DNA from: Gracilinanus agilis
Lineage: Eukaryota
Length of the DNA: 64,000 nt
NCBI RefSeq assembly: GCF_016433145.1
Contig: NC_058130.1
Location: forward strand, 704,164,639-704,228,638
Direction of reading: 5' to 3'
Shown: positions 13,901-44,340 of the stretch, piece after piece
Layout: each line of letters begins with the position of its first letter
Position numbering within the stretch: the stretch's first letter is position 1
Position numbers and translations under genes: made by a program
The notes under the pieces: model-generated
Seen by the model: the letters and a program-made list of their open reading frames with translations, nothing else
What the model was told of the DNA's origin: nothing
The model's database searches: none

Positions 13901-15790
13901 TACTAAGGCAGAAAAGGTTTTTTGTTGTTTTTTTTTAAAATAAATGTAAAGAAAGAAAGAAAGAATTTAATGAAAACAACAACAAAAACAACAAAACCAT
14001 CAAGTTAAGAGTTAGGAAATCTGAGTTCTACTCCCAGTTGTATCACTGACTTGGTGTTTGACTTTGGCTAGGCCCTAGCTTTGTCTGAATTTTCCCTTAT
14101 CTACAACAGTCAGGAATACTGGTCTAAGTAAGTAACCAATAGGGTCCCTTCCAATTCTAAATGTTTTAATGATTCTGTGAATCTAATAGGAACAACAGAA
14201 TAAGAATAAAAAGTAGACCAGTCTTGGAATTTGTTTGGAACATTAAAAAACCTAGTCTACTTTGACTTTAACCCTGGTATGGTTTGGAGTTAGCAATATT
14301 TCCACAACTAGAGGAGTCTTCCTAGTCACCACTTCCTAGATCTACCTTATGTCTTTATACATAGAAACAGGTAGTGATGGAGAGTATAAGTCAGCTATTC
14401 AATCACAGAATTTCAGAGTATCCAGAAAACCAAAAACTATACCTAGAAACCAAGTCAAATGTCAAAGGTACCCTTCTTCCTTGCCTTCTTTTCCACCCCC
14501 CCAACTGTCCCTTCCGTAAGGACACTCACTCATTAGGGGTGACACAGTCCTTGATGTATGCCTTCTCCAGGGCTTGCATCGTCTTCACCACAGCAAATAA
14601 CTCTGCCATGTTGTCATACCTAAAGGTGTGGACCTGGTTAATCAAGTTGGTAGTTCCCAGGTTTAAGAAGCATGTTACTCCACCCTTCTCCTATGACCAG
14701 CCATGACTACATGACCACAAGCTACCCTAGACTGCAATGCTGAAGGCTCATAAGAAAGAAATGTCCACAGATCTCCAGGTAATGGTAACCACAGAGAGCC
14801 AAGGAGATAAGAGTAGGATTAGGGGAGCAGTGATTTCTTAACATTTCAATACTACCCAACTCAAGGAATAGAGATCAGCAGTTATAGCCAAGTCCACTGA
14901 GATTCTCTCCAGGGTTCTCCAAGTACCCTTTTGTAATTGCAACCAGCCCTAGCCTTCAATGGCCTCAAGGATGCAACAGAGCATGACCCTCAGTGATTTG
15001 TCTGGAGATGACCAACAGAAGGGAAGGCTCTAATGTGGTGGGGACCCTCCCCATCCCCACCCTCCTTCAATAAGGCCTTCTTCTTTCTCCATGTTCTCTT
15101 AGGGACTCACTTCTCTCTTTCCCGGGCATTCTTGTACAGCTTCACTTCCTGCAGGAGAGAAAAGAGAACCTTTCTAAGCTCAGTCTTATTAAACAAGAGG
15201 CAAACCCAGAGCCCATTTTATTTAGGCCTACAGAAATATGTAGCTGGCAGTTGATAAGATGGCTCACTCTCAGACTCTCTCCTCTCTTCCTACCAAAGGA
15301 TGAGGGGGATGCACCTGGGGAGGAGGGGAGAGGAGGCAGGGACTGAGGCTAATGGGGACATTTGAGGAATCCCCCCAACAGAAGGTAGCACTCACCTCAT
15401 ACAGCTCGGGCTTATTCCCAGGGGCTGAAAACAAAGAAAATAGTAGACCAAGTCTCCATTCTTAGCTACTATCTCCAGCCGGCCCGCCCCCTATTCTCTG
15501 TAGGTGCTCCTTAAATAAACACGAAGTCTTCGCCTGGTACACCCTGAACTCAGCTCTCTACCTCTGGGGGTGGGGGGTGTCCACAGTAGAGGAAGCCTGA
15601 GGCAGCGCCCCACCCCCTCCCTTAGGCCCGGGTTCCAGGCGCCCCCTGCAGGTGGTCCCCCTGCAGATGGTGCCCCAGCTTCCCTCTCACTCCCCCAGCC
15701 TCTCTCGGAGAGCGCTCCCGCTTGCCTCCCCGTCTTGGCGGTAGGTCACTCACCTCCCATTCCGGGATTGGCAGGGATTCCATGAAACAT
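7945..15790 (-). CDS. VPS28: ESCRT-I subunit VPS28, complete 9-exon CDS (666 nt, 221 aa)
   Basis: Coding exons (minus): 15754-15790, 15396-15424, 15111-15148, 14530-14619, 12278-12383, 12023-12124, 8595-8648, 8301-8392, 7945-8062. All introns are GT-AG. Translation [34 protein letters not shown]...[57 protein letters not shown]...[14 protein letters not shown](TAA) is nearly identical to the mammalian VPS28 I recall. Confidence 0.98.
10947..11008. repeat. (TG)17 microsatellite plus alternating purine-pyrimidine tract
   Basis: (TG)17 at 10947-10980 followed by gcgcgcgcacgtgtgtgtgtacatatat. Confidence 0.95.
11010..11800 (-). mobile_element. CR1/L3 LINE ORF1 fossil in VPS28 intron
   Basis: Decayed frames give [30 protein letters not shown] (CR1 ORF1 zinc-finger/leucine-zipper-like), then [10 protein letters not shown]...[10 protein letters not shown] and [13 protein letters not shown]...VDLTRA (SGNH esterase-like blocks). 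Confidence 0.7.
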
Positions 15791-16529: not shown

Positions 16530-17254
16530 TGTCGACATGGAATCTAGAAACCCCAAACTTGTAGCCTAGTAAGATCTGATGAACCCCAAGTTTTAGGACA
16601 AGCTTGTAAGTTGGAGACCCCAAAGCTTGTACTTGTTCCCTGTTGCCATTAGAATCCACCCTGAAGGGAATCTCAAGCTAGCAGTTTCAGACTGAATAAT
16701 GGTCCCTAGGGTAAATGACTCTCATGCTTAGGTGGAGCTAGGTGTATGCTAAATACTCTCTTTGTCTTAAGTAGTCTTCCCCAAAGTATCAGAGACCTTC
16801 TTCTTTTCCCCCCCCCCCCCAAAGACCCACTCCAGGGAGGGGACCATCCTTTTAGTGTCCATCATGGGTAGCCCCTTCCCTCACACCCTAGCTCTGGGCT
16901 ATGATTCCTTTTCCTAGCTTGATTGTATCCTGTCAATATATTTTGAACACTCCCATTTCCTTGTAGACTGACTGTAATGTCAGTCATCTTTCCCTGCCCC
17001 TGGATCTCCCCAAATGGTATATAAGTTTCTCAAATTCTTTTGTTCCTTGGAATTGTCTGATCTAGCCAGGTTGCCTTTTCCAGGGGTCCGGGACCAGAGC
17101 AACTAGAGTTCAATCCTCAAACTCTGTGTAGGGATGTGGCCATGTGGGGCACAACTCTATGTAGAGACCTAACTCAGCCCTGTTATCCATTTCCTTAATT
17201 AAAGAATGGTTTTTCTGACTATTTAATAGTTCTGTGTTTTTTTCTGAGTCAACA
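16530..17254 (+). mobile_element. Solo ERV LTR (~725 bp)
   Basis: TGTCGA...TCAACA termini, TATATAA at 17018-17024, ATTAAA at 17198-17203, no PBS after the 3' end. Same family as the arms at 27798-28219. Confidence 0.8.
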
Positions 17255-18431: not shown

Positions 18432-18626
18432 TCAATGGCATTCAAAGAAAAATTTATGGTGGTGATTCAGCATGAAGGGAGGCAGGATACTGTTTGTAGG
18501 CCAACTGCTGGCTTAGGACTTGATGGTCAGTAAGTCTAAGTTTGCTACAACACAGCTGTAACTCTTGAAGCTGTGAGGTGATTTTACCCTATGTGCAGCT
18601 GCCCAAGGGCCCTTCGATGGAGCATC
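18432..18626 (-). pseudogene. TONSL: TONSL last exon (exon 26) remnant, disrupted
   Basis: GCSIEGPLGSCT*GKITSQLQELQLCCSKLRLTDHQVLSQ aligns without gaps to human [40 protein letters not shown]. TAG at 18589-18591 replaces Trp. The tail (FMLNHHHKFFFECH*, cf. CTLDHGSKLFFRRL*) is in another frame, consistent with 195 nt versus the expected 194. AATAAA at 18381-18386. Confidence 0.88.
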
Positions 18627-18634
18627 CTTTAAAG

Positions 18635-23060: not shown

Positions 23061-24585
23061 GATCTTAAATACAGATGTGCAGAATACAGAGGCATAACAA
23101 TCCATTGCCTTACCTTCTTGGTCACCTGATTTTTTTTTAAGTGAGGTCATGTGATTGGGATTAGATCAGAGATCTCCAGTTAGCCTCTGATAACTGCCTT
23201 GGCTCACATTTACTTTTAATATTTCTTACAACAGAAGCTGCTAATGAGTCAATTAGAAATATTACATGTGGCTAATGAATAGAAATTTGGTGAAACAATG
23301 ATTACTAGGTATCTCAGGAATTAATTTCAGATTCCTAACTGGCAACATTCCTCTCTCCCACTAGGCTTCAAGGAAAGGAAAGTATAATGCCAGGGCTTTT
23401 TAATGCTATCTGTGGTTGATAAGATTTCTAAGAACAAATGAAAAGCTCAGTAAAGAAGTTTACTGATGAAAATAGGACCAGGTGATCTACTTGGACAGCA
23501 AATAACTAGTTGAATAATCCTAAGGAGACAATTTCCCAACATTTGGTTCCTCATCCTAAATCCCTTCTCCTAGGAAAGGAAGGGGATGAGGAGGAATTTG
23601 TTAAAACAAGGTTAGAAACCTTGATGACCAACTCTCTCAGAATCAAATTCTGGGTATGAATCATTCCCTTTGGGCCAAGCCAAGTAGAAATGCTACGTCC
23701 TCTCCACAGAGATCATAAGAAGGGATGTTAACCCCTACTTTTCAAATTCAATAGGATACCAAGTTCATTTTATTTAAATTTTTTTTTATTTTTTAGAAAA
23801 AAATTTTCCATGGTTACATGATTCATGTTCTTGTTCTCTCTCCCCCCACCTCCCCACACACTATAGCCAACATGCCTTTCCACTGGTTTCTTTATGTGTA
23901 ATCGATCAAGACCTATTTCCATATTATTGATAATTGCTCTAGGGTGGTCATTAAGAGTCCACCTCAATCCATGTGTTCAAGCAGTTGTTTTTCTTCTGTG
24001 TTTCCATTCCTATAGTTCTTCCTCTGCACTTGATCTTAGCCAAAAGGCAGAAAAGCAATTATAGTTCTTACTCTAAATGTGGGTAGCATTCTTTTCCATA
24101 AATCCCTCAGAATTGTCCAAGGTCATTACATTGCTGCTAGTACAGAAGTCCATTACATTCGATTTTGCCACAGTTTATCCGTCTCTGTGTACAATGATCT
24201 CCTGGTTCTGCTCCTTTCACTCTGCATCAGTTCCTGGAAGTCATTCCAGTTCACATGGAATTCCTCCAGTTCATTATTCCTTTGAGCACAATAGTATTCC
24301 ATCACCAACAAGGATACCAAGTTCAGAAGGTTATAGAATAAGCATTCAGGTTCCCCAATCTGCCCAAGATAACATGTTTCCTTCCTTTGAGTCTTCCCAC
24401 AGCTCCTAAAACAAGTTTTCCTTAATAGGTGGCATTTCTTTCACTTTTCTGATAGACTGCATCATATTTCATCACAAAATGGCATTATATCCATGTTTTG
24501 ATCAAATGAAAGTCGAGACATAAAATATCCCAACTAAATTGACTTGGAGTTGAGGGTAAAAAGTCAGGGTGACCAAAATTCTCAC

Positions 24586-24719
24586 CTGCAAGACCAAGGA
24601 AGTCAAGGCCAGAATTTCTTTCCTGAAGGGTTGACAGGATCTCTTCCAGGCTGGCACGGCTAATTTTAGGATTGGCAGTCAGATCCAGTGAGATTAATGA
24701 GGGGCAGATGGGAAGACAT
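24586..24719 (-). pseudogene. TONSL: TONSL exon 25 remnant (LRR), open frame, intact AG/GT
   Basis: 134 nt; (R)[44 protein letters not shown](G) vs human [46 protein letters not shown]; tttctag acceptor, gtgaga donor. Confidence 0.92.
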
Positions 24720-25769
24720 CTAGAAAGATAAGACAAAAGGAAGTGGGGAATAGATCCAGAAGGGAGAGAATAAGGAAGAAATTGATAGCCAACAACCACT
24801 TGCCCTTTACAGCCAACACAGTGCTAGGGAATCTTTTTCCACCCAATTCAACAAACATTAAGTTCCTATTGAGGAGCAACACCCTTAAGATAAAAAGATT
24901 AAAATAATACGAGGCAGAAAAAACTAGTTTTAGTCAGTCCTTGGAATTCAGGTATAGACAAGGTAAGCCCCATCATACCAAATACATTTATAATTCAGGA
25001 TGCTAAAAGAAGCTTCACTTTGTCTCTTCAAATAACCTCAAGAAGGTGGGGTAGGAGTCTTCCCTAATACAGTCTAGTTAAAGACAAAAGCTACTGGTTC
25101 CTAGGAGTTACTATAGAATCATATAACAGTCCAAGGGACCAGAAAGAGGAAAGCTTGTCCTCGTCTTTATCTATATAGCTCCTTGAATCTCCATGCTGTA
25201 ACTGATGTGTTCTGTCATGGGATCTGGGTAAACAGAAGTGTTTATAGGTGTTAATGACTAACAGGACTGTAGACAAAAAACAGAATGGTAAGACTGAAGG
25301 ACACCAGGACTCAGGTGAACAGATAAAGGAAGAAGGGGCTTAGGAGCCTAAGCAAAGAGGAGAGAAAAGAATGAAAACGGTGTTTGGACCGAAGATGAAA
25401 AGCTAGGTAAAATGAAGAAGAGAATTTGGGACAGTCAAGTAAAACAGAGGAGAGTGTGGGCTAGCAATAATTGGAATTGCACTTGGGTGGTCAGACAGAA
25501 GCATCTAGAACCATGAATTCATTAAGGCTTGCCTGGCCCTATGTCTGCCACCCTGGATTAACTATCTTCATGTTTGTGGTAAAGGATTGTTTGTGTTTTC
25601 AAGATACCTGGTATGAGAAGTTGTTTGCCTGCTGAGAGGGACACTGTAGGAAGCAAGGAAGTTGGGCTGTATTTTCTGGACTATCCCCTCATCTTGGCTA
25701 GTGTGATACTATAGGCAGGCAGCAGAATGTTTGTCCTAGGCATGGTAGAAGCCCTGGATCCCATGTTAC

Positions 25770-25843: not shown

Positions 25844-26288
25844 CTAGACACAAATAGCAGGAACTCAAGAAGGCACAAAGGAAAGGAGAGACACCAAAGA
25901 GTTTGTGACACGTGCCCAGAGAGTCAAAGTCAGATGAAGGCTCTGATTAAATGAACATCCCTGGACAAAAAGAGTCAAGTCCATGAGGTTTAAAAATGTA
26001 TGCCCTGAGTGTAGCTTAGTGGCTCAGAGGATAGAGAGCCAGACCTGGACAGGGGAGGTTTTGGGTTCAAATCAGGCTTCTGACACTTCCTACCTGTGTA
26101 AACCTGAGTAGGTCACTCAACCCCAATTGCCTAGCCCTCAATACATAATATTGAGTCTAAGACAAAGGGTGAGTAGTTAAAAAAAAAAAAAACACAACAA
26201 CACAGACTTATGCCCTATTGAGCCTGAGTGAGCCCTTATTCCTGACCACTATCTACCATTGGACCAGGACCTCAGAAATATGGAACTC

Positions 26289-26788
26289 NNNNNNNNNNNN
26301 NNNNNNNNNNNNNNNNNNNNNNNNNNNNNNNNNNNNNNNNNNNNNNNNNNNNNNNNNNNNNNNNNNNNNNNNNNNNNNNNNNNNNNNNNNNNNNNNNNNN
26401 NNNNNNNNNNNNNNNNNNNNNNNNNNNNNNNNNNNNNNNNNNNNNNNNNNNNNNNNNNNNNNNNNNNNNNNNNNNNNNNNNNNNNNNNNNNNNNNNNNNN
26501 NNNNNNNNNNNNNNNNNNNNNNNNNNNNNNNNNNNNNNNNNNNNNNNNNNNNNNNNNNNNNNNNNNNNNNNNNNNNNNNNNNNNNNNNNNNNNNNNNNNN
26601 NNNNNNNNNNNNNNNNNNNNNNNNNNNNNNNNNNNNNNNNNNNNNNNNNNNNNNNNNNNNNNNNNNNNNNNNNNNNNNNNNNNNNNNNNNNNNNNNNNNN
26701 NNNNNNNNNNNNNNNNNNNNNNNNNNNNNNNNNNNNNNNNNNNNNNNNNNNNNNNNNNNNNNNNNNNNNNNNNNNNNNNNNNNNNNNN
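26289..26788. other. 500-N assembly gap
   Basis: Run of 500 N; the same 47-mer occurs on both sides. Confidence 0.99.
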
Positions 26789-27797
26789 CTGACCACTATC
26801 TACCATTGGACCAGGACCTCAGAAATATGGAACTCCAGGCTCCTCAGGCAAAGCCACCTCTGTGGGTAGAGCTGGCATGTAGGATTCTGAAAGACAACAG
26901 ATTGCCAGGAGCACTTGAACTTGGGAGTCATAAAACATTATGGAAAAGGAATCAGAACAGTCTGAAACAGTTGGGTCAACAAGAATCTCAGCCTTGGAAA
27001 TCTGGGAGAGCCTATAGAGCTGGAAAACAAAGAGAAGAAAATCTAGGAGAGTTTTTAGGTTGAGGTATATGTATGTGGATCCCCTTTGAGTTTAAGCCTT
27101 TCCTCATAGGATCAAATGTTTGTTAAGTGCTTATGTAGCAATCCAGGTATACATTAATTGTGATATTATTTTAAGAAGTATTCAAAAACTTAACTCTTAT
27201 ACTGCTAATGATTGATCTCTGCAATCTTGAGTCAAATTGAACATCTACCCAGCCAAATCCCTAGCCCTTCCCTAAGGCTACACCCCAGAAGACTGGTCAG
27301 TTATCTCAGTCTCCTTACTTTTCCTGCAAAGATCAATTAACATAGGTATCAAACATCAGTAGATGCCTTAGGCCATATCCACTCTGGATCCCTTAGCTCT
27401 ACCTATTGTTTTTGGTTTTGGCAGTTTGCATTTTATGATGATTACCTCATAATGTTAATGTATCAAGCCACTGAGCTCTCCCCTTCCCCCCATACTGTTG
27501 TAACCCCAATAAAGGTGACAAGAAATGAGTTGGCAGAGAAGCTCCTAACCATCAGAGCTCCTAACCATGAAGCTCTTGACCACCAGAGCTTACTTGCTGT
27601 CTGTCTACCTTATGACAAAACTTTCTGTGTCTGCGTGTCTTTGTTCTCGCCTTATGTTCTCTTTCCATTAGTCCTTAACCGGTAACCCATTTTCACTCAG
27701 TCCTTGGTTCCCCTTTCTGAGTGTCCAACCCACTAGGAATCTTCGTGGAGTCGGTAGACAGCTTCATCTTAGCACAGTGTCTGGCACATAGGAGATA

Positions 27798-28219
27798 TGT
27801 CGATGTGGAATCTAGAGACCACAAACTTATGGCCAGTGAGATTTGATGAACCCCAAGTTTTAGGAATAGCTTGTAAGTTGGAGACCCCCAAAGCTTGTGA
27901 TCTGTTCCCAGTTCCCAGGAGAACCCACCCAGAAGGGAATCTCAGGCTAGCAGTTGCAGACTGAATAATGGACCCTAGAGTAAAAGCTAGGTGACTCTTT
28001 AGTGCAGTAGGCAGCATGTTAGTCTTGTAAGCTGAAGGTCCTGAGTTCCATCCCTGAAAGGGGGATGTGGTACAATGGGAGAACCTTCTAAGGCAAAAGA
28101 ATCACTGGGAACAGATCACAAACTTTGGGGGTCTCCAACTTACAAGCTATTCCTAAAACTTGGGGTTCATCAGATCTCATTAGGCCACAAGTTTGTGGTC
28201 TCTAGATTCCACATCGACA
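27798..28219. mobile_element. 422-bp palindromic LTR-derived insertion (two inward-facing LTR 5' ends around a tRNA copy)
   Basis: Arms 27798-27912 and 28104-28219 are inverted repeats (4 substitutions + 1 indel). Termini TG...CA, GATA duplicated on both flanks, inserted in an L2-like tail. Arms match the 5' end of the solo LTR at 16530. Confidence 0.9.
27993..28065 (+). tRNA. Degenerate tRNA-Met(elongator)-derived pseudogene
   Basis: gactctttagtgcagtaggcagcatgttagtcttgtaagctgaaggtcctgagttccatccctgaaagggggA matches vertebrate tRNA-Met-CAT at about 55/73 positions by eye. A box present, B box mutated (GTTCCATCC), anticodon position now TGT, acceptor stem poorly paired. Confidence 0.75.
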
Positions 28220-28740
28220 GATACTTAATCAAATCTTGTTCTCTTCTACCTTTCCCTCATTCCTAGTTACTCTCCTCTCACGAGTGCCAAGACCTCAAGA
28301 CTTCTTGGGAGAACAGGGAAATCATAACTGCTCATTTTTGTGTGGAGATGTGACAAAATTTTAATATGTAAAATTCTCCTCAGCATTTTAATTTTCAAGT
28401 TTTAGAATCCCATCATTCACACCCTACAAAAATATGACAGACTCAAGGTATAGTAACACTGTCTTTGTTTTTCATAGGGTTTCCAATGCTCACCTTTTCA
28501 AACTCAGATAAAGAGAGCTTTTTTTTTTCTGAATCCTTTTTTTCTTTTCTGTCCTAATGACTCAGCAAGTCAACAAGCCTTATTGGAGTGAGTACTATGT
28601 GATAGGCACTGTACTAAGTGTTGGTGATACAAGGAAAGGCCTTCATCTTGGAAAACAAAAGCAAAGGTATCCTTATGATTTTGCTAGTTTCTGCCCTGCC
28701 TGTTTTCTCCTCCCCTATCCCAAAAGGTTCTACTGCATAC

Positions 28741-30029: not shown

Positions 30030-30750
30030 CTCCAGTGCTGCAGCAGAAGTAGAAACCATAGAAATAGGAAGAAGAAACGACAGAGACAGGAAGGAGGGAC
30101 CTCAGAGACAGGAAGTGAGGTAGGAAGAGGTTATAAAAGGAGTTGGGGCTGGCAGTTCTGGAGGTCAGTTGCTGACAGTTAGGGCTAGCAGTTGCAGGGA
30201 AGTTGACTGCTAGGCATGAGTTGGTGGTTGACTTTTAGTTGCTGGAATATTAAGGCAGGCCTGAGCTTACTGAGAGGGCTTTTTTGCTTTAGCCTTTAGA
30301 GAGCTTTTTGACCTTTTCTGGGTTAGGAGGTGGCTGGTCTTCGTTGACAGACCTAATTGGGGTTGGATTAAACACTGATTGGGTTGGTTTTGATAGGGCT
30401 GGATTGGGCTGGAACTTTGTGGGGTGGTTGTTATTAGCGGTAATTTTAGGCAGTTTTAGGTAGTAGTTATAGGCAGTTATAGGTAGTTATAGGATAATTA
30501 GTATACACATTAGGAAAGTTTCTTTCTCTACATCTTTCCCATATTTCCTTTACTATATTCATTTTACTATATTCTTTTACTATCTCTATTTTAATTAAAC
30601 TAAATCATTCATTGTTTAAAGCTGCTAGAAGTTTTCTTTTCTCTGGCTTAAAGGGATAATATTAATTTACAACTACTATATTCTCATTAAAACTTAAATT
30701 ATTAAAAACTGCTCTCTTATTTTGTCAAAACTCCAAATGTAACCCTTACA
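30030..30750 (+). mobile_element. ERV LTR-like element
   Basis: Repeated caggaag motifs, TATA (gttataaaagg, ~30131), attaaa signal and AT-rich LTR-like 3' part; boundaries approximate. Confidence 0.6.
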
Positions 30751-37295: not shown

Positions 37296-38147
37296 TTAGA
37301 TTACTTTCTTCAATTCCTCATACAGGACAAGTGCCAAAGCTCCACCCATGCCTCTAAGATCAGTGGACCAGGCACCCTTGAAGCAAGCTTTGCCCCCCTC
37401 ATCTTTAGCAATCTTCCTCCAGCAATGGATTATGTCAGTGTCCAAGGTATCAGCTCCTTTGTGCCCAGACTGCATCATCATTTGTCGCCTTACTGTATCA
37501 AAGGGATAGGAAACTCCACCTGCTACAGCAGTCACTCTGTGTACAATCATCCAACTTATCACAAGATGAATATTCTTAGGATCTAGAAGCATACCTTTGG
37601 CTGTATCATCAATTCCAAAGTAGGCTGCTCCATAGAAAATAATACCCTTCAAGGGACCAACAAAACTTTGATATGAGCCCCGAATTCCATCATACTTGGT
37701 GATTTTCACAAGGCAGTCCCTCAGGCCTTTGAATTCTCTCTCAGTGCCAGATTTCCCAGCATCAGTTCTTGCAAAATCCAAAGGGTAGACAAAGCAGAGA
37801 GAAGTGGCTCTGGCTGCACCACCAGAGGCAAGATTACCAGCAAAATACCCCCAAAATGTGTGTGTTTGTCCACTGCTTCCCAAAACACCTGCTTATACTT
37901 ATCCTTAAAGGCAAAGTTATGGGCCTGGATGGGGAAATATCTGATGACATTTGCTAAGTTACCCCACCAGAAGGAAAACATCTCTTGTTCCTTTAGAATT
38001 CAGACAATACAGTCCATAATGCCTTTGTACAGCTTATCTGCAGCAAGTTGTTTATTTGCATGCTGTCCCTGCAATAATAGTCTGACTCTCTGGATGGGGG
38101 CCACCAGCCAAGAAGTCCATGTCAAAGGATATGGCTTGTTCCATCAT
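37296..38147 (-). pseudogene. SLC25A6: Processed pseudogene of ADP/ATP translocase 3
   Basis: Intronless. [16 protein letters not shown]...VDKHT...[20 protein letters not shown]...LYEELKKVI* has ANT3-diagnostic termini (MTEQAISF, LKKVI). Lesions: deletion after FLAGG, TGA at 38000-38002, frameshift near 37855, loss of RLAA. 3'UTR-like sequence (ggaccattgaccttcaagaaat..gttgtcttt) continues to about 37179. Confidence 0.93.
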
Positions 38148-39866
38148 CCTTACAGAGGGGATAGATGGTGGAACTGGAAACAGAAAGCCAATGTAAGAGG
38201 GCTGAAAGCTGGGCAAGGCTTAGCTTAAAAGCATTTTAAAAAGGGGAATTATATTGTCTGGTACCCTAATGCCATACCAATATTTCTTTTCCCAAAATGG
38301 CAGTCTGTGCATATCATTCTTGGTGGAGGAGGCTACACAGTTTACTTGTAAGTAAGAAGAGGCAAGACTGAATACAGAGGAGAGGGAAAACATAAAGGCT
38401 TTATCTTTATCGACTTCTTCTTCCATTAGGCTAATTGGTCTGGTTCTGTGACTCTACACTTTGGTGACTGAGCCAGTTTACCACTTAGTAAGGTGGGGAA
38501 GGGGGTGTTAGGCAGATGGGAATAAGCATTTATATCCTATGTGCCAGGCCCTGTGCCAAGCACTTTTTACAAATATCATTACAACTGTACAACATAGGTG
38601 TTCTTCTCTCTTCCATTTTACTGTTGAGGAAAGTGAGGCACAGAGGCTAAACGATTTAGGGTCATACAGCTTAATAGTCTGAAGCCACATTTGAATTCAG
38701 GCCTTCCAGAATGCAGACTCAGAAATCACCAGCTACCTTCCTGCTAGATGGGCTGCAAAGGTGCAATCAGTCAAGAAGCCTTTATTAAGAGCCTACCATG
38801 GGGCAGGTGGTTCAGTGCATAAAGAGCCAGGCCTGGAGATGAGAGGTTGTGGGTTCAAATTTGAACTCAGATACTTTCTTGCTGTGTGATCCTGGGTAAG
38901 GCATGTAACTCCAATTAATCAGTTTTCTGCTTTGGGACCAATACTTCGTATTGATTCTAAGACAGAAGGGAAGTGTTAAAAAAAAAAAAAAAAAAAAAGA
39001 GCCTGTGATGTCCTAGGCACTATGTTCAATCAAGCCTTTTGTCTAGTACCTGACACAGAGATGTGTCTCCCCAATGTTAGGTAGGGTTAAGGGAAGACCA
39101 TTACCATCTCTCCTGGATGCTGACCTTCCTAATTGATCTTCCTAATGGGAACTCCAAATGTGATCTTGGTTGACAATGTGGGGAGGAGCAAGAAAGAAGA
39201 GAGAAAACTCCTTTTCTCTCTAATTCCTCATCACTAAATTCCACTAGGTCTAGAAGGCAGAATCAAAACAGATACTTCCTGTTTTCATCCACTGATCCAA
39301 ATCCCCTCCTGTCTTAATGTTCAGTCCTGTCTGACTCTTCTTGACCCCATTTGATGTTTTCTTGGCAAAAGATACTTGTTTGCTATTTCCTTCTCTTGCT
39401 CATTTGGCAGATGAGGAAACTAAGGAAAACAGGGTGAAATGACTTGCCCAGGATCACACAGCTGGTAACTTTTTGAGGTCTGATTTGAACTCAAGAAGAG
39501 TCTTCTTGACTCCAGTCATTCTATCCACTGTGCCCCCTAGTTGCTCCAAAGCCCATGAACTCTTTATTTTTATTTTATTTTACAAGTTGAACTTATTTAT
39601 CTTTTTAAAAAATATTTTCCATGTTTCCATGATTCATTTTCTTTCTTTCCCTTCTTCCCTCACTTATACCCATTTCTATATTATTCATTTTTGCAATAAG
39701 AACAATCTTTTAAAACCTTACCCTAATCATATGTCCATATAAACAAATGATAAGACATTTGTTTTTCTTCTGTGTTTCTACTCCCATAGTTCTTTTTCTC
39801 TCAATATGGATTAGTGTTCTTCCCTATAAGTCTCTTGAAGCCCCTAAGATCTTTCTAATTTTATTA

Positions 39867-41670
39867 TGTGAAATTGATTAGTGATGAATAATTAAGAGTT
39901 TTGATAATCACAGCAGGACTCATTGTAACCAATTTCTTTTTTTTTTTTAAGCCCTTGTACTTCGGTGTATTGTCTCATAGGTGGAAGATTGGTAAGGGTG
40001 GGCAATGGGGCTCAAGTGACTTGCCCAGGGTCACATAGCTGGGAAGTGGCTGATGCCGGGTTTGAACCTAGGACCTCCTGTCTCTAGGCCAGGCTCTCAC
40101 TCCACTGAGCTACCCAGCTGCCCCCGTGTAACCAATTTCTAAGGCTTAGATTCAGAACTATTTTATATAGGCCTTAATAGTATGATACTTGATAGAAGAA
40201 TGCAGAAACCTGAGATCAGACTCTTGAGGGAGATAAAGAAGATGAATGGAAGATGACTAATATATAGAAAATGGTCAGCCATTTTTTAGGTGCAAAAGAG
40301 GAGTTTGCCCCTTTAGAACACAGAACCTGGCAAGGCAGCCCCGGGCAATGCGCCAATCTGGTAGTTGGGAAAGGAGTATAAATTGAGGAGCAAAACCCCT
40401 CAGGGGCACTTCTTCTCTGGGTTAGGGAGGCAGGAAGTTGTCTACTGTCTGGGCCCCTGGAGGACAGTAGATTGGTATAGGCAGGCAGGCAGGATTCAGA
40501 CTACTTTGCTGGCTATATCAATCACCTTTTTATTGATAAGGCAACTGAGCCTTAATTACTAAACAAGATTATTTCATCATCAAAATATCCAAAATCTATA
40601 ACAGCTTCCCAGCCAGGGGAGACTCTCAAAGTCCCCTGGACTCAGCACCTAGGTCAACTTTCTACTTAGATATCTCCATAAATTTATTGTACTTATTATA
40701 GGTTATAAGCTTAATAGGGTTCACCTACTTCCCTCTCTCCCTCCTCCCAGTTTCCTTTTCTGACAGCCTTTACTCATAAGGTGATAGCTTACCTTAAGGA
40801 CAAAATCATTATCTCTTTGTCAACGAAGTCAGCTTGGGAATGTGTCATTTCAAATTACTTTTTGTTTGTTATGATCCATTGGGGAGACTAGTCTCCCAAA
40901 GGATCACGGGGGTGGGAGGGTTTGAGGGGGGGAGGGAATATGTCATTTAAAATTATTCTTCTACATCTCCCAGAGCTCCCTGCTACAACTTCCCACTCCA
41001 CCTCCCACTTCCTTTGTGGGAGGTGTTGGAGAAAGTATAAGAGAGAGGGTTTTGGCTCCTTTTCACTCTCTTGAGCCCAGAGGCTGGCTGATGCCCTCTA
41101 CCCTGAGCCCTGCAGAGCTTTTGGCTAGTAGCTCTCTTAGAGCCCTTTCCCCCTTCTATCTACCTCCTAGTTTTTCCTAGACCTTCCCTTTTCTAATTTA
41201 AACAAAACCTAGCTATTCCTAAGTTGCTATCTGATCTTTTATTTGAGCCCCAAAGGGCACTGCTACCTTCCTTTCCCTTCCTCTACCTTCCTCTCTCCTT
41301 TCTCCCAACCATCCTTCCTCCTATGGTCCTCTCATCCCCACACAGGAACAAAGCCTAGCTGATCCAAATACTTCAAGATCAAGCTTGTGCTTGAATAATA
41401 AACACCATTAAGGTCCCAGAAAGTTAAACAACTTCCTGGTTTTTATCAAGCCCAACTGATTCCTTAGGAACTGTTACTAGGGCATTCAGCTTTTCACAGA
41501 ATTCCATCTCCTTTCAGTGGAGCTTTCAGGCAGTAGTTTAGATCAACCTCAGACCTTCATGCTTTGATTGAATATCAGTGTTCCACTGAATTGACTAATA
41601 ACAGGACCTTAACCTACCAATAACATGACTCAATCTGGCCATGAGAAGTTTTGTTTTTTTTTCCCCCCTA
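39867..41670 (+). mobile_element. LTR copy B (same family as 36146-37178) with nested SINE and a second LTR-like insertion
   Basis: Shared blocks such as tagaaaatggtcagccatttt, gtttgcccctttagaac, ggaaaggagtataaattg, ttcacctacttccc, ttaaggtcccag. Interrupted at 39938-40125 and ~40830-41345; ends approximate. Confidence 0.65.
39938..40125 (-). mobile_element. Young SINE1_Mdo-type SINE with perfect 14-bp TSD
   Basis: Full tRNA-like head to poly(A); TSD TGTAACCAATTTCT at 39924-39937 and 40127-40140. Confidence 0.9.
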
Positions 41671-43779: not shown

Positions 43780-44340
43780 GCGACTCTCCCAGAGTCACAC
43801 AGCACCAGGCTGCTGCTGAAGCGACCCCGAACCGGCCAAGGTGAGATAAGGACTTTTTCACTGAATAGTGGCGTGGAGGGAGGAGGCCGCGCCCTCCACC
43901 CACCCCCCGCCCAGGGGAGTATCCCGCACAGCGTCTTCAACAGCACGGTAACGCCAAAGCGCACGCACCGCGGGGAGGAAGTAGAAGATCTACAGCCCCG
44001 CAGTTCTCCGGTCTTTGCGCCTGCGCGCCCGCAGGGTGCTGATAGGGCGTGGATGGGAGGAGTGGAAGAGGTGGGGAGGCAGCTCCAGCGCCGGAACTCT
44101 TGAGCAGGAGGTCCGCGGTTCGACCGGAACGTTTTTTTGGCCGTCCTGGAGCCTGTTCTCTTCCACCTCCTCTCTTCTCCCCATCCTACCTCCGCGAGCC
44201 GATGTGCCGCGGCCGGTGCGCGCCGTGGGGAGAACGCGTGAGGCTGCGGGAGGAGGCGGAGGAGGTGGCGCGCGACACAGGTGGGGGAGGGCAGAGAATG
44301 TTAGGGATTAGGGGGGTCTGGGTGCGGGGAAAAAATGAGG
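43780..44340 (+). promoter_or_regulatory. CpG-island promoter and probable non-coding exon 1 of CPSF1
   Basis: CpG-rich, 2.4 kb upstream of the ATG exon. NRF1-like GCGCCTGCGC near 44016-44025 and two ETS-like CCGGAA cores. Candidate exon-1 donors at 44216 (GTGCGC) or 44238 (GTGAGG). Confidence 0.8.

What the first reader, a model, noticed from the sequence alone, without database searches (positions are those of the whole stretch)
27794..28223. Palindromic LTR-end / tRNA-Met / LTR-end element with retroviral-type ends and 4-bp TSD
The 422-bp unit has a left arm equal to the first ~190 bp of the LTR family seen at 16530, then a 73-nt tRNA-Met-like copy, 38 bp of unassigned DNA, and the first 116 bp of the same LTR in reverse. 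The arms are ~96% identical. Ends are TG...CA, and GATA is duplicated so that removing the unit restores an L2 tail (ggcacatagga-gata-cttaatcaaat). It therefore inserted as one piece, apparently via two U3 att ends. It could be an aberrant reverse-transcription product that captured a tRNA, or a member of an undescribed MITE-like family mobilised by ERV integrase and carrying a Pol III cassette (conceptually like 5S-bearing Cassandra elements of plants). A read-through transcript would fold into a 115-bp hairpin.
Basis: partly seen in the sequence, partly recalled or inferred. Interest (0 to 1): 0.8.

Follow-up and report, generated by a model that had tools for sequence, protein, structure and literature searches.

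The report
Double-ended retroviral insert with tRNA remnant
A short insert in an opossum-family gene intron has two mirror-image copies of a retrovirus's left end around a decayed tRNA-like piece; it is probably a single retroviral accident, but it could be the first sign of a tRNA-promoter retroelement family in mammals.

Summary
The structure is real. Window 27798-28219 (422 bp) runs TG...CA between two GATA copies. Its arms are 95.7% alike over 116 columns, and both match the promoter-side (U3) end of the LTR at 16530-17254 at 87%. It lies in a TONSL intron of a marsupial, probably a didelphid other than Monodelphis domestica.

The tRNA-Met-like part is not a fresh primer copy: 28.5 bits in Rfam, 11 of 21 Watson-Crick pairs, no CCA, no CpG, damaged B box. 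It had decayed before the arms were made, unless the arms were later homogenised.

Best reading (0.5): a one-off insertion made by an ERV1-type integrase acting on two U3 ends, with an older tRNA-derived piece joined between them. Boldest live reading (0.22): the solo LTR of a Helenus-like, Pol III-driven element. Helenus is described from fish, insects, molluscs and fungi, not from mammals. A cut-and-paste MITE is unlikely.

Copy number decides between these and could not be tested: no marsupial genome was searchable. There is no second copy in the window.

The parts
27794..27797 (.). Left copy of the 4-bp target site duplication (GATA)
   Evidence: chance of identity 0.005
27798..27984 (+). 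Left arm: first 187 bp (U3, promoter-side end) of the LTR family seen at 16530; the first 115 bp pair with the right arm
   Evidence: 86.7% over 188 columns to 16530-16715; unpaired part 63 of 72 identical
27985..27998 (+). Junction made of two LTR words in swapped order (a 9-mer from 16736 and a 7-mer from 16716), overlapping tRNA positions 1-6; likely a microhomology join (inferred)
27993..28065 (+). Decayed tRNA-Met-like sequence: A box intact (28000), B box one mismatch (28045), T stem broken, anticodon TGT, no CCA, no CpG
   Evidence: comparison by eye
28056..28067 (+). Ten-purine run followed by TG, resembling a polypurine tract and an LTR start; not significant by itself
   Evidence: 67 such sites in the window, about 1 per kb
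28066..28103 (+). 38-bp spacer with a second A-box pattern at 28068; origin unassigned
   Evidence: 14 such 11-nt patterns in the window; no significant match elsewhere in the window
28104..28219 (-). Right arm: first 116 bp of the same U3 end, inverted
   Evidence: 95.7% to the left arm, 87.1% to the LTR at 16530
28220..28223 (.). Right copy of the 4-bp target site duplication (GATA)
27770..28240 (+). Target: L2-tail-like host repeat interrupted by the unit (family name recalled)
   Evidence: similar pieces elsewhere in the window; spacing test inconclusive
16530..17254 (+). Reference LTR of the same family (725 bp): TG...CA, 6 of 7 terminal inverted bases, TATA at 17020, ATTAAA at 17198; flanking 4-mers match at only 2 of 4
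25844..28740 (-). TONSL intron that hosts the unit (GT at 28740, AG at 25844)

Best explanation
A one-off insertion made by an ERV1 (gamma-like) integrase that held two U3 ends instead of one U3 and one U5 end.

Shown: both termini are nucleotide 1 of the LTR's promoter-side end, a 4-bp duplication flanks them, both arms come from one template lineage, and the middle is an already decayed tRNA-derived piece.

Inferred: in one infection or retrotransposition event, DNA primed at the polypurine tract was joined to a second, inverted U3. This could be a fold-back or two plus-strand intermediates priming on each other, or two cDNAs inserted in trans and then end-joined. The tRNA-like piece came from an older Pol III-type source: either an LTR variant that already carried it behind U3, or a co-packaged tRNA-derived RNA copied to its 5' end. 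The copy has no TATA box, polyadenylation signal, primer site or outer purine tract, so it cannot move again. Its main effect is a ~115-bp RNA duplex in TONSL pre-mRNA.
For: The ends coincide with LTR position 1, and the LTR's TATA and ATTAAA lie downstream, so these are U3 ends. The inverted repeat stops exactly at TG/CA, with a perfect 4-bp duplication. Marsupial ERV1 LTRs have 4-nt TSDs, and most opossum ERV ORFs are class I (PMC4408412, passages). Integrase can insert two separate oligonucleotide ends in concert and leaves 4-6 bp duplications (PMC5329712, passages). The arms share 13 differences from the window LTR and differ from each other at 5 columns. The tRNA 5' end coincides with the junction, which is built of LTR words. 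The unit has no TATA or polyA signal on either strand, no B-box consensus match, and no second copy in the window.
Against: A feature met in one 64-kb window is more likely to belong to a multi-copy family than to be unique (inference). Absence from 64 kb says almost nothing about a genome. The two protein searches that found nothing had no positive control for marsupial repeat translations. No paper describing a natural two-U3 insertion turned up, so the mechanism has no direct precedent that I saw. The model needs one to three template switches, and the source of the tRNA-like piece was not found. Two intact A-box patterns fit a promoter that was once under selection.
Confidence: 0.5

Rival explanations
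1. Member of a multi-copy family, most plausibly the solo LTR of a Helenus-like non-autonomous element. The tRNA-like part replaced the Pol II promoter as a Pol III promoter, the inverted U3 serves as U5, an ERV1 helper supplies the enzymes, and LTR-LTR recombination left this copy with its 4-bp duplication.
For: It needs neither two-U3 integration nor excision. Helenus LTRs carry tRNA-like sequence with broken structure and anticodon/isotype disagreement, leave solo LTRs, and make 4-bp TSDs in animals (PMC10886601, whole text). Here the TATA-to-polyA part of the LTR is absent and a tRNA-like cassette sits in its place, the A box is intact, and the anticodon disagrees with the backbone. Sampling favours multi-copy elements (inference).
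Against: The B box has a mismatch. The motifs that paper names as conserved, TRGCY and GGTTC, are each missed by at least one base. A T4 run in the left arm at 27858 could stop Pol III before the repeat region. At 422 bp it exceeds the longest Helenus LTR, 323 bp. That paper's main text has no inverted or palindromic case and no mammal. Reverse transcription would have to pass a 115-bp duplex. No second copy is in the window.
Confidence: 0.22
2. Post-integration rearrangement. An older solo LTR that already carried the tRNA-like piece had its right part replaced by an inverted copy of its left 116 bp, through a replication template switch at the LTR's short terminal inverted repeat, keeping the original duplication.
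For: It explains an old tRNA-like part beside young arms, and the 13 differences shared by both arms. The reference LTR has 6 of 7 complementary terminal bases.
Against: It needs a switch across hundreds of bases on 5-6 nt of homology. The unit looks no older than the reference LTR: its duplication is intact against 2 of 4 for the reference, and A/T states number 5 in the unit against 10 in the reference (P 0.15, not significant). Half of the differences are transversions (10 of 20), which suggests a subfamily difference rather than long decay in place (inference).
Confidence: 0.13
3. The tRNA-like part is the primer tRNA-Met itself, read through during plus-strand synthesis; it then aged in place while the arms were homogenised by gene conversion.
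For: On the minus strand the order is U3 piece, 38 nt ending in CA, then the antisense tRNA from its 3' end, as in LTR-end/primer-site geometry. It is 20 of 21 identical to tRNA-Met at positions 36-56 (by eye).
Against: There is no CCA, and the 3' 17 nt, which a primer site must match, are the worst part (7 of 17). There is no CpG in 73 nt while both arms and the reference LTR keep their terminal CpG. The 38 nt gave no match to the reference LTR's 3' end. P(11 or more of 38) is 2e-5 at 6.5% and 0.005 at 12.5% per site.
Confidence: 0.07
4. Non-autonomous cut-and-paste element (MITE) of a Ginger-type transposase.
For: A 116-bp terminal inverted repeat, TGTNR termini and a 4-bp duplication all fall within the Ginger description (PMC2836005, passages).
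Against: The arms are the start of a 725-bp element with TATA, ATTAAA and no long inverted repeat. GATA is not the CCGG/CCGT target of Ginger1. The passages read name only a domesticated Gin-1 gene in opossum.
Confidence: 0.04
5. Assembly fold-back artefact.
For: A 500-N gap lies 1 kb away and its flanks overlap by 47 bp, so the local assembly is imperfect. No reads were available.
Against: The arms differ at 5 columns, all four substitutions being transitions. There is a perfect 4-bp duplication, the host repeat continues in one orientation, and TONSL exons on both sides are in order on one strand.
Confidence: 0.03

Closest known systems
Helenus / TRIMp3 (Kojima 2024, PMC10886601; whole text read, supplement searched)
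   Same: tRNA-like sequence inside LTR-type DNA, broken cloverleaf with anticodon/isotype disagreement, 4-bp TSD in animals, solo LTRs occur.
   Different: Helenus has two direct LTRs with a primer site and purine tract, LTRs up to 323 bp, Gypsy helpers in animals, and no mammalian or inverted-end case. Here the arms are ERV-like, inverted, and both U3.
ERV1 solo LTRs of marsupials (PMC4408412, passages)
   Same: TG...CA ends, 4-bp duplication, 87% identity to a neighbouring LTR.
   Different: No R-U5: the TATA box and polyA signal are absent, and the right end is a second U3.
Cassandra (described in PMC10886601; other papers seen as search listing only)
   Same: A small-RNA-derived Pol III cassette inside LTR-type DNA.
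   Different: 5S rather than tRNA, plants, direct repeats; promoter activity is shown there and untested here.
Ginger1/Ginger2 DNA transposons (PMC2836005, passages)
   Same: 40-270 bp inverted repeats, TGTNR ends, 4-bp TSD.
   Different: The arms derive from an LTR; the target is not CCGG/CCGT; there is no transposase-coding partner in view.
Aberrant retroviral DNA and break repair by cDNA capture (PMC5314604 and PMC4516963, passages)
   Same: Inverted or rearranged viral DNA, and microhomology joins of several reverse-transcribed pieces.
   Different: Those are unintegrated circles, or insertions that mostly lack LTR ends and TSDs. This unit has both exact LTR ends and a TSD.
DIRS retrotransposons (abstract starts only)
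   Same: Inverted terminal repeats in a retroelement.
   Different: They use a tyrosine recombinase and are several kb long (size recalled); no sequence link was tested.

Membership tests
ERV1 solo LTR | TG...CA ends | tested here: met
ERV1 solo LTR | 4-bp target site duplication | tested here: met
   marsupial ERV1 4-nt TSD in PMC4408412
ERV1 solo LTR | U3-R-U5 order with TATA box and polyadenylation signal | tested here: not met
   none on either strand of the unit; present in the reference LTR
ERV1 solo LTR | Right end is U5, distinct from the left end | tested here: not met
   the right end is an inverted U3
ERV1 solo LTR | Link to an ERV1 internal region (pol phylogeny) | not testable with these tools
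   no internal region seen next to either copy; the class is inferred from TSD length
Helenus / TRIMp3 | tRNA-like sequence within LTR-derived DNA | tested here: met
Helenus / TRIMp3 | Conserved A and B boxes | tested here: inconclusive
   A-box pattern present, B box one mismatch; the motifs named are not matched exactly
Helenus / TRIMp3 | 4-bp TSD (animal families) | tested here: met
Helenus / TRIMp3 | Two direct LTRs around a primer site and purine tract | tested here: not met
   single unit, flanks are host repeat; a solo LTR would look the same
Helenus / TRIMp3 | Multiple dispersed copies | not testable with these tools
   no marsupial genome searchable; no second copy in 64 kb
Helenus / TRIMp3 | Pol III transcription from the cassette | not testable with these tools
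   no expression data
Ginger-type MITE | Inverted repeats of 40-270 bp, TGTNR ends, 4-bp TSD | tested here: met
Ginger-type MITE | Ginger1 target CCGG/CCGT | tested here: not met
   the target is GATA
Ginger-type MITE | Ends shared with a transposase-coding element that has the same long inverted repeats | tested here: inconclusive
   the only homologue in the window is LTR-like and has no long inverted repeat; genome not searchable
Functional tRNA gene | Intact cloverleaf and a score above the family threshold | tested here: not met
   28.5 bits against a gathering score of 29; 11 of 21 Watson-Crick, 6 wobble, 4 non-pairs
Copy of a mature primer tRNA | 3' CCA and near identity in the last 18 nt | tested here: not met
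   no CCA; 7 of 17 at positions 57-73 against a mouse Met fragment (by eye)

The most novel reading that the evidence does not exclude
This is the solo LTR of an undescribed mammalian non-autonomous retroelement family. It is driven by a tRNA-derived Pol III promoter, mobilised by an ERV1 helper, and uses an inverted copy of U3 as its U5, so every copy is a ready-made 115-bp RNA hairpin and looks like a DNA-transposon MITE although it moves by reverse transcription.
Probability: 0.22. Interest if true: 0.8.

Novelty: new variant of a known kind. Interest (0 to 1): 0.5.

Why it matters
As a one-off, it is a clear natural record that an endogenous retrovirus integrase can insert DNA with two U3 ends in a germ line. 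It also shows how an LTR end can be converted into a long terminal inverted repeat, which bears on how LTR elements and Ginger-type DNA transposons are related. As a family, it would extend tRNA-promoter LTR elements (Helenus/TRIMp3) to mammals and to ERV helpers, and it would seed double-stranded RNA hairpins in introns. Such elements would be easy to mis-annotate as two LTR fragments plus a tRNA pseudogene. One genome-wide search settles which.

Tried and rejected
Second copy in the window: blastn and local alignment of the tRNA-like part and the spacer gave nothing clearly above shuffles (the best score, 37 for tRNA plus spacer, compares with a maximum of 35 in 15 shuffles).

Translated copies elsewhere: a 110-aa frame across the spacer, tRNA and left arm gave no hit in two protein sets. 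This is uninformative without a positive control.

Rfam over the whole window: 0 matches at gathering score.

Origin of the middle from the same LTR. Three weak resemblances were tested and none is established, given several tests: antisense to 17034-17052, empirical P 0.016-0.08 by query length; sense to about 17106-17153, P 0.04; junction to 16716-16752, P 0.03.

Purine-tract reading of 28056-28067: such runs occur about once per kb.

Spacer as a second tRNA 5' half: 13 of 18 identical to a printed mouse tRNA-Ala start (by eye). This was chosen after the fact and is left open.

L2 spacing test: inconclusive; an anchor-motif search found no usable copy.

Literature: ten searches showed no description of this structure in titles or abstract starts. 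The main opossum repeat paper (Gentles 2007) is not held. Dfam and Repbase could not be queried, and the supplement of PMC11551137 could not be read, so the tRNA 5' half has no tool-given reference. The phage, plasmid, E. coli and bacterial genome collections were not searched because they cannot hold a marsupial repeat; metagenomic and viral contigs stayed unchecked.

Full report
Observation. The unit is window 27798-28219 (422 bp), starting TG and ending CA, with GATA on each side. Two random 4-mers of this window are identical with probability 0.005. The arms differ at 5 of 116 columns, four transitions and one gap: a distance of 0.036, or about 1.8% per arm (interval 0.5-4.5%). Both strands fold into a stem of about 115 bp. 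The inverted repeat ends at TG/CA, because the adjacent flank bases are not complementary. The flanks resemble other L2-tail-like pieces in the window (family name recalled), but scoring zero, one or two GATA copies against 8 such pieces split 2, 3 and 3. 'Restores the L2 tail' is therefore plausible but not shown.

Setting. Pfam finds a VPS28 exon at 14529-14621 on the minus strand. An exon at 24584-24727 is TONSL: 93% identical to Monodelphis domestica and 91-96% to four Australian marsupials over 46 residues. Over all matched exons, Monodelphis is closest (148 of 174 against 138 of 173, 130 of 173 and 127 of 159; 4 of the 5 proteins were compared). The abundant young SINE looks like SINE1_Mdo (recalled). 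I infer a didelphid other than M. domestica. The unit lies in the intron 28740-25844 on the minus strand, so TONSL pre-mRNA would carry the hairpin; editing or processing is untested. A 500-N gap 1 kb away has flanks overlapping by 47 bp. An artefact is still unlikely: the arms are not identical, the duplication is perfect, and the exons on both sides are in order.

The arms. Both match the start of a 725-bp element at 16530-17254 at 87%. That element has TG...CA ends, 6 of 7 complementary terminal bases, TATA at 17020 and ATTAAA at 17198. It reads as an LTR on the plus strand, so the arms are its U3 end. Its own flanking 4-mers match at only 2 of 4, a weakness in calling it a clean solo LTR. 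The two arms share 13 differences from it, so they come from one template lineage. A 4-bp duplication fits ERV1: marsupial ERV1 LTRs have 4-nt TSDs and most opossum ERV ORFs are class I (PMC4408412, passages). No internal region was seen, so the class is inferred.

The middle. ARAGORN calls tRNA-Thr(TGT), and Rfam scores it 28.5 bits, under the gathering score of 29. A window word from it occurs in a printed mouse tRNA-Met fragment (PMC11551137, passages). By eye the unit matches that fragment at 27 of 38 positions: 20 of 21 at positions 36-56 and 7 of 17 at 57-73. The 5' half has no tool-given reference; its Met likeness is recalled. In standard numbering, 11 of 21 stem pairs are Watson-Crick, 6 are wobble and 4 do not pair; the T stem is broken and no CCA follows. 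It has no CpG in 73 nt, while each arm keeps one. At the arms' divergence, 11 mismatches in 38 has P 5e-11, 5e-7 at the upper bound, and 0.005 even at 12.5%. The mouse reference and clustered changes inflate that count, and gene conversion between arms could make them look young. The most economical reading is still that this piece was old before the unit formed. The A box is intact at 28000, the B box has one mismatch, and a second A-box pattern opens the spacer at 28068. The 14 bases at the left junction are two LTR words, one of which overlaps tRNA positions 1-6, as expected for a microhomology join at the RNA's 5' end (inferred). Attempts to derive the spacer from the same LTR gave P values of 0.016-0.08 across several tests and are inconclusive.

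Mechanism. Integrase processes two CA ends and inserts them with a stagger, and it can do so with two separate oligonucleotide ends (PMC5329712, passages). Exact U3 termini on both sides with a 4-bp duplication point to an integrase event. I put 0.5 on a one-off with two U3 ends, formed by fold-back, by mutual priming of two plus-strand intermediates, or by insertion of two cDNAs in trans followed by end joining; these cannot be told apart here. The simplest version needs only one new join if an LTR variant already carried the tRNA-like cassette behind U3, and this is directly testable. The copy has no TATA box, polyA signal, outer purine tract or primer site, so it cannot regenerate its ends.

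Rivals. A family remains possible (0.22). Helenus elements carry decayed tRNA-like promoters in their LTRs, leave solo LTRs and make 4-bp TSDs in animals (PMC10886601, whole text), and a solo LTR would need no unusual integration. Against this stand the damaged B box, a T4 run at 27858, a length above the 323-bp maximum, and the need for an inverted U3 to act as U5. That paper lists no mammal: 0 hits for mammal, marsupial, opossum, inverted or palindrome in the text and 0 for Monodelphis, Mammalia, opossum or Didelphi in the supplement. It also notes that 'not a few' Repbase LTRs contain tRNA-like parts, so a tRNA-bearing opossum LTR could already be catalogued. Later rearrangement of an older solo LTR (0.13) explains old tRNA beside young arms but needs a long switch on 5-6 nt of homology. 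A read-through copy of the primer (0.07) fails on CCA and on the 3' end. A Ginger-type MITE (0.04) fits the geometry (PMC2836005, passages) but not the LTR origin of the arms or the Ginger1 target.

What was not settled. Copy number is decisive and could not be tested. The window has no second copy, and two protein searches with a frame across the junctions found nothing, but neither result has much power. Ten literature searches showed no description of this structure in their listings. The main opossum repeat paper is not held, and Dfam and Repbase were out of reach. Other papers seen as passages only: PMC5753468, PMC4516963, PMC5322556, PMC4558846, PMC5314604 and PMC8450103.

Verdict. A real and unusual structure: a new variant of a known kind (ERV LTR-derived insertion), most likely a single accident, with about a one-in-five chance of marking a mammalian tRNA-promoter LTR family. 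Interest 0.5.

Noticed in passing
window 26242-26835: The two sides of the 500-N gap (26289-26788) overlap by 47 identical bases, so the gap is probably not real sequence.
   Followed up: partly
window 28846-64000: Only TONSL residues 1196-1363 map to the window; no exon for residues 1-1195 was found in the 35 kb upstream even at E 10. This means either a very long intron or a scaffold join.
   Followed up: partly
window 18435-18633: The last TONSL exon changes frame at 18476-18478 relative to both reference proteins tested: an indel in this species or an assembly error.
   Followed up: no
window 16530-17254: This LTR sits about 0.5 kb upstream of the GC-rich start region of VPS28, pointing away from it, and has a perfect B-box pattern at 17108 in its transcribed part.
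   Followed up: partly
window 37296-38228: Mitochondrial-carrier coding sequence on the minus strand (Pfam PF00153), without visible introns; it looks like a processed ADP/ATP translocase pseudogene (name recalled).
   Followed up: no
window 27495-27769, 30040-30750, 40240-41300: Further LTR-like pieces by appearance, one ending about 30 bp left of the unit. Pairwise similarity is weak (best score 34, no control).
   Followed up: partly
window 28054-28057: The 3' strand of the T stem repeats the 5' strand's first four bases, the reverse complement of what pairing needs. This suggests a 4-bp micro-inversion or a template switch.
   Followed up: partly
window 43800-44300: A second CpG-rich, promoter-like region of unknown gene assignment.
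   Followed up: no
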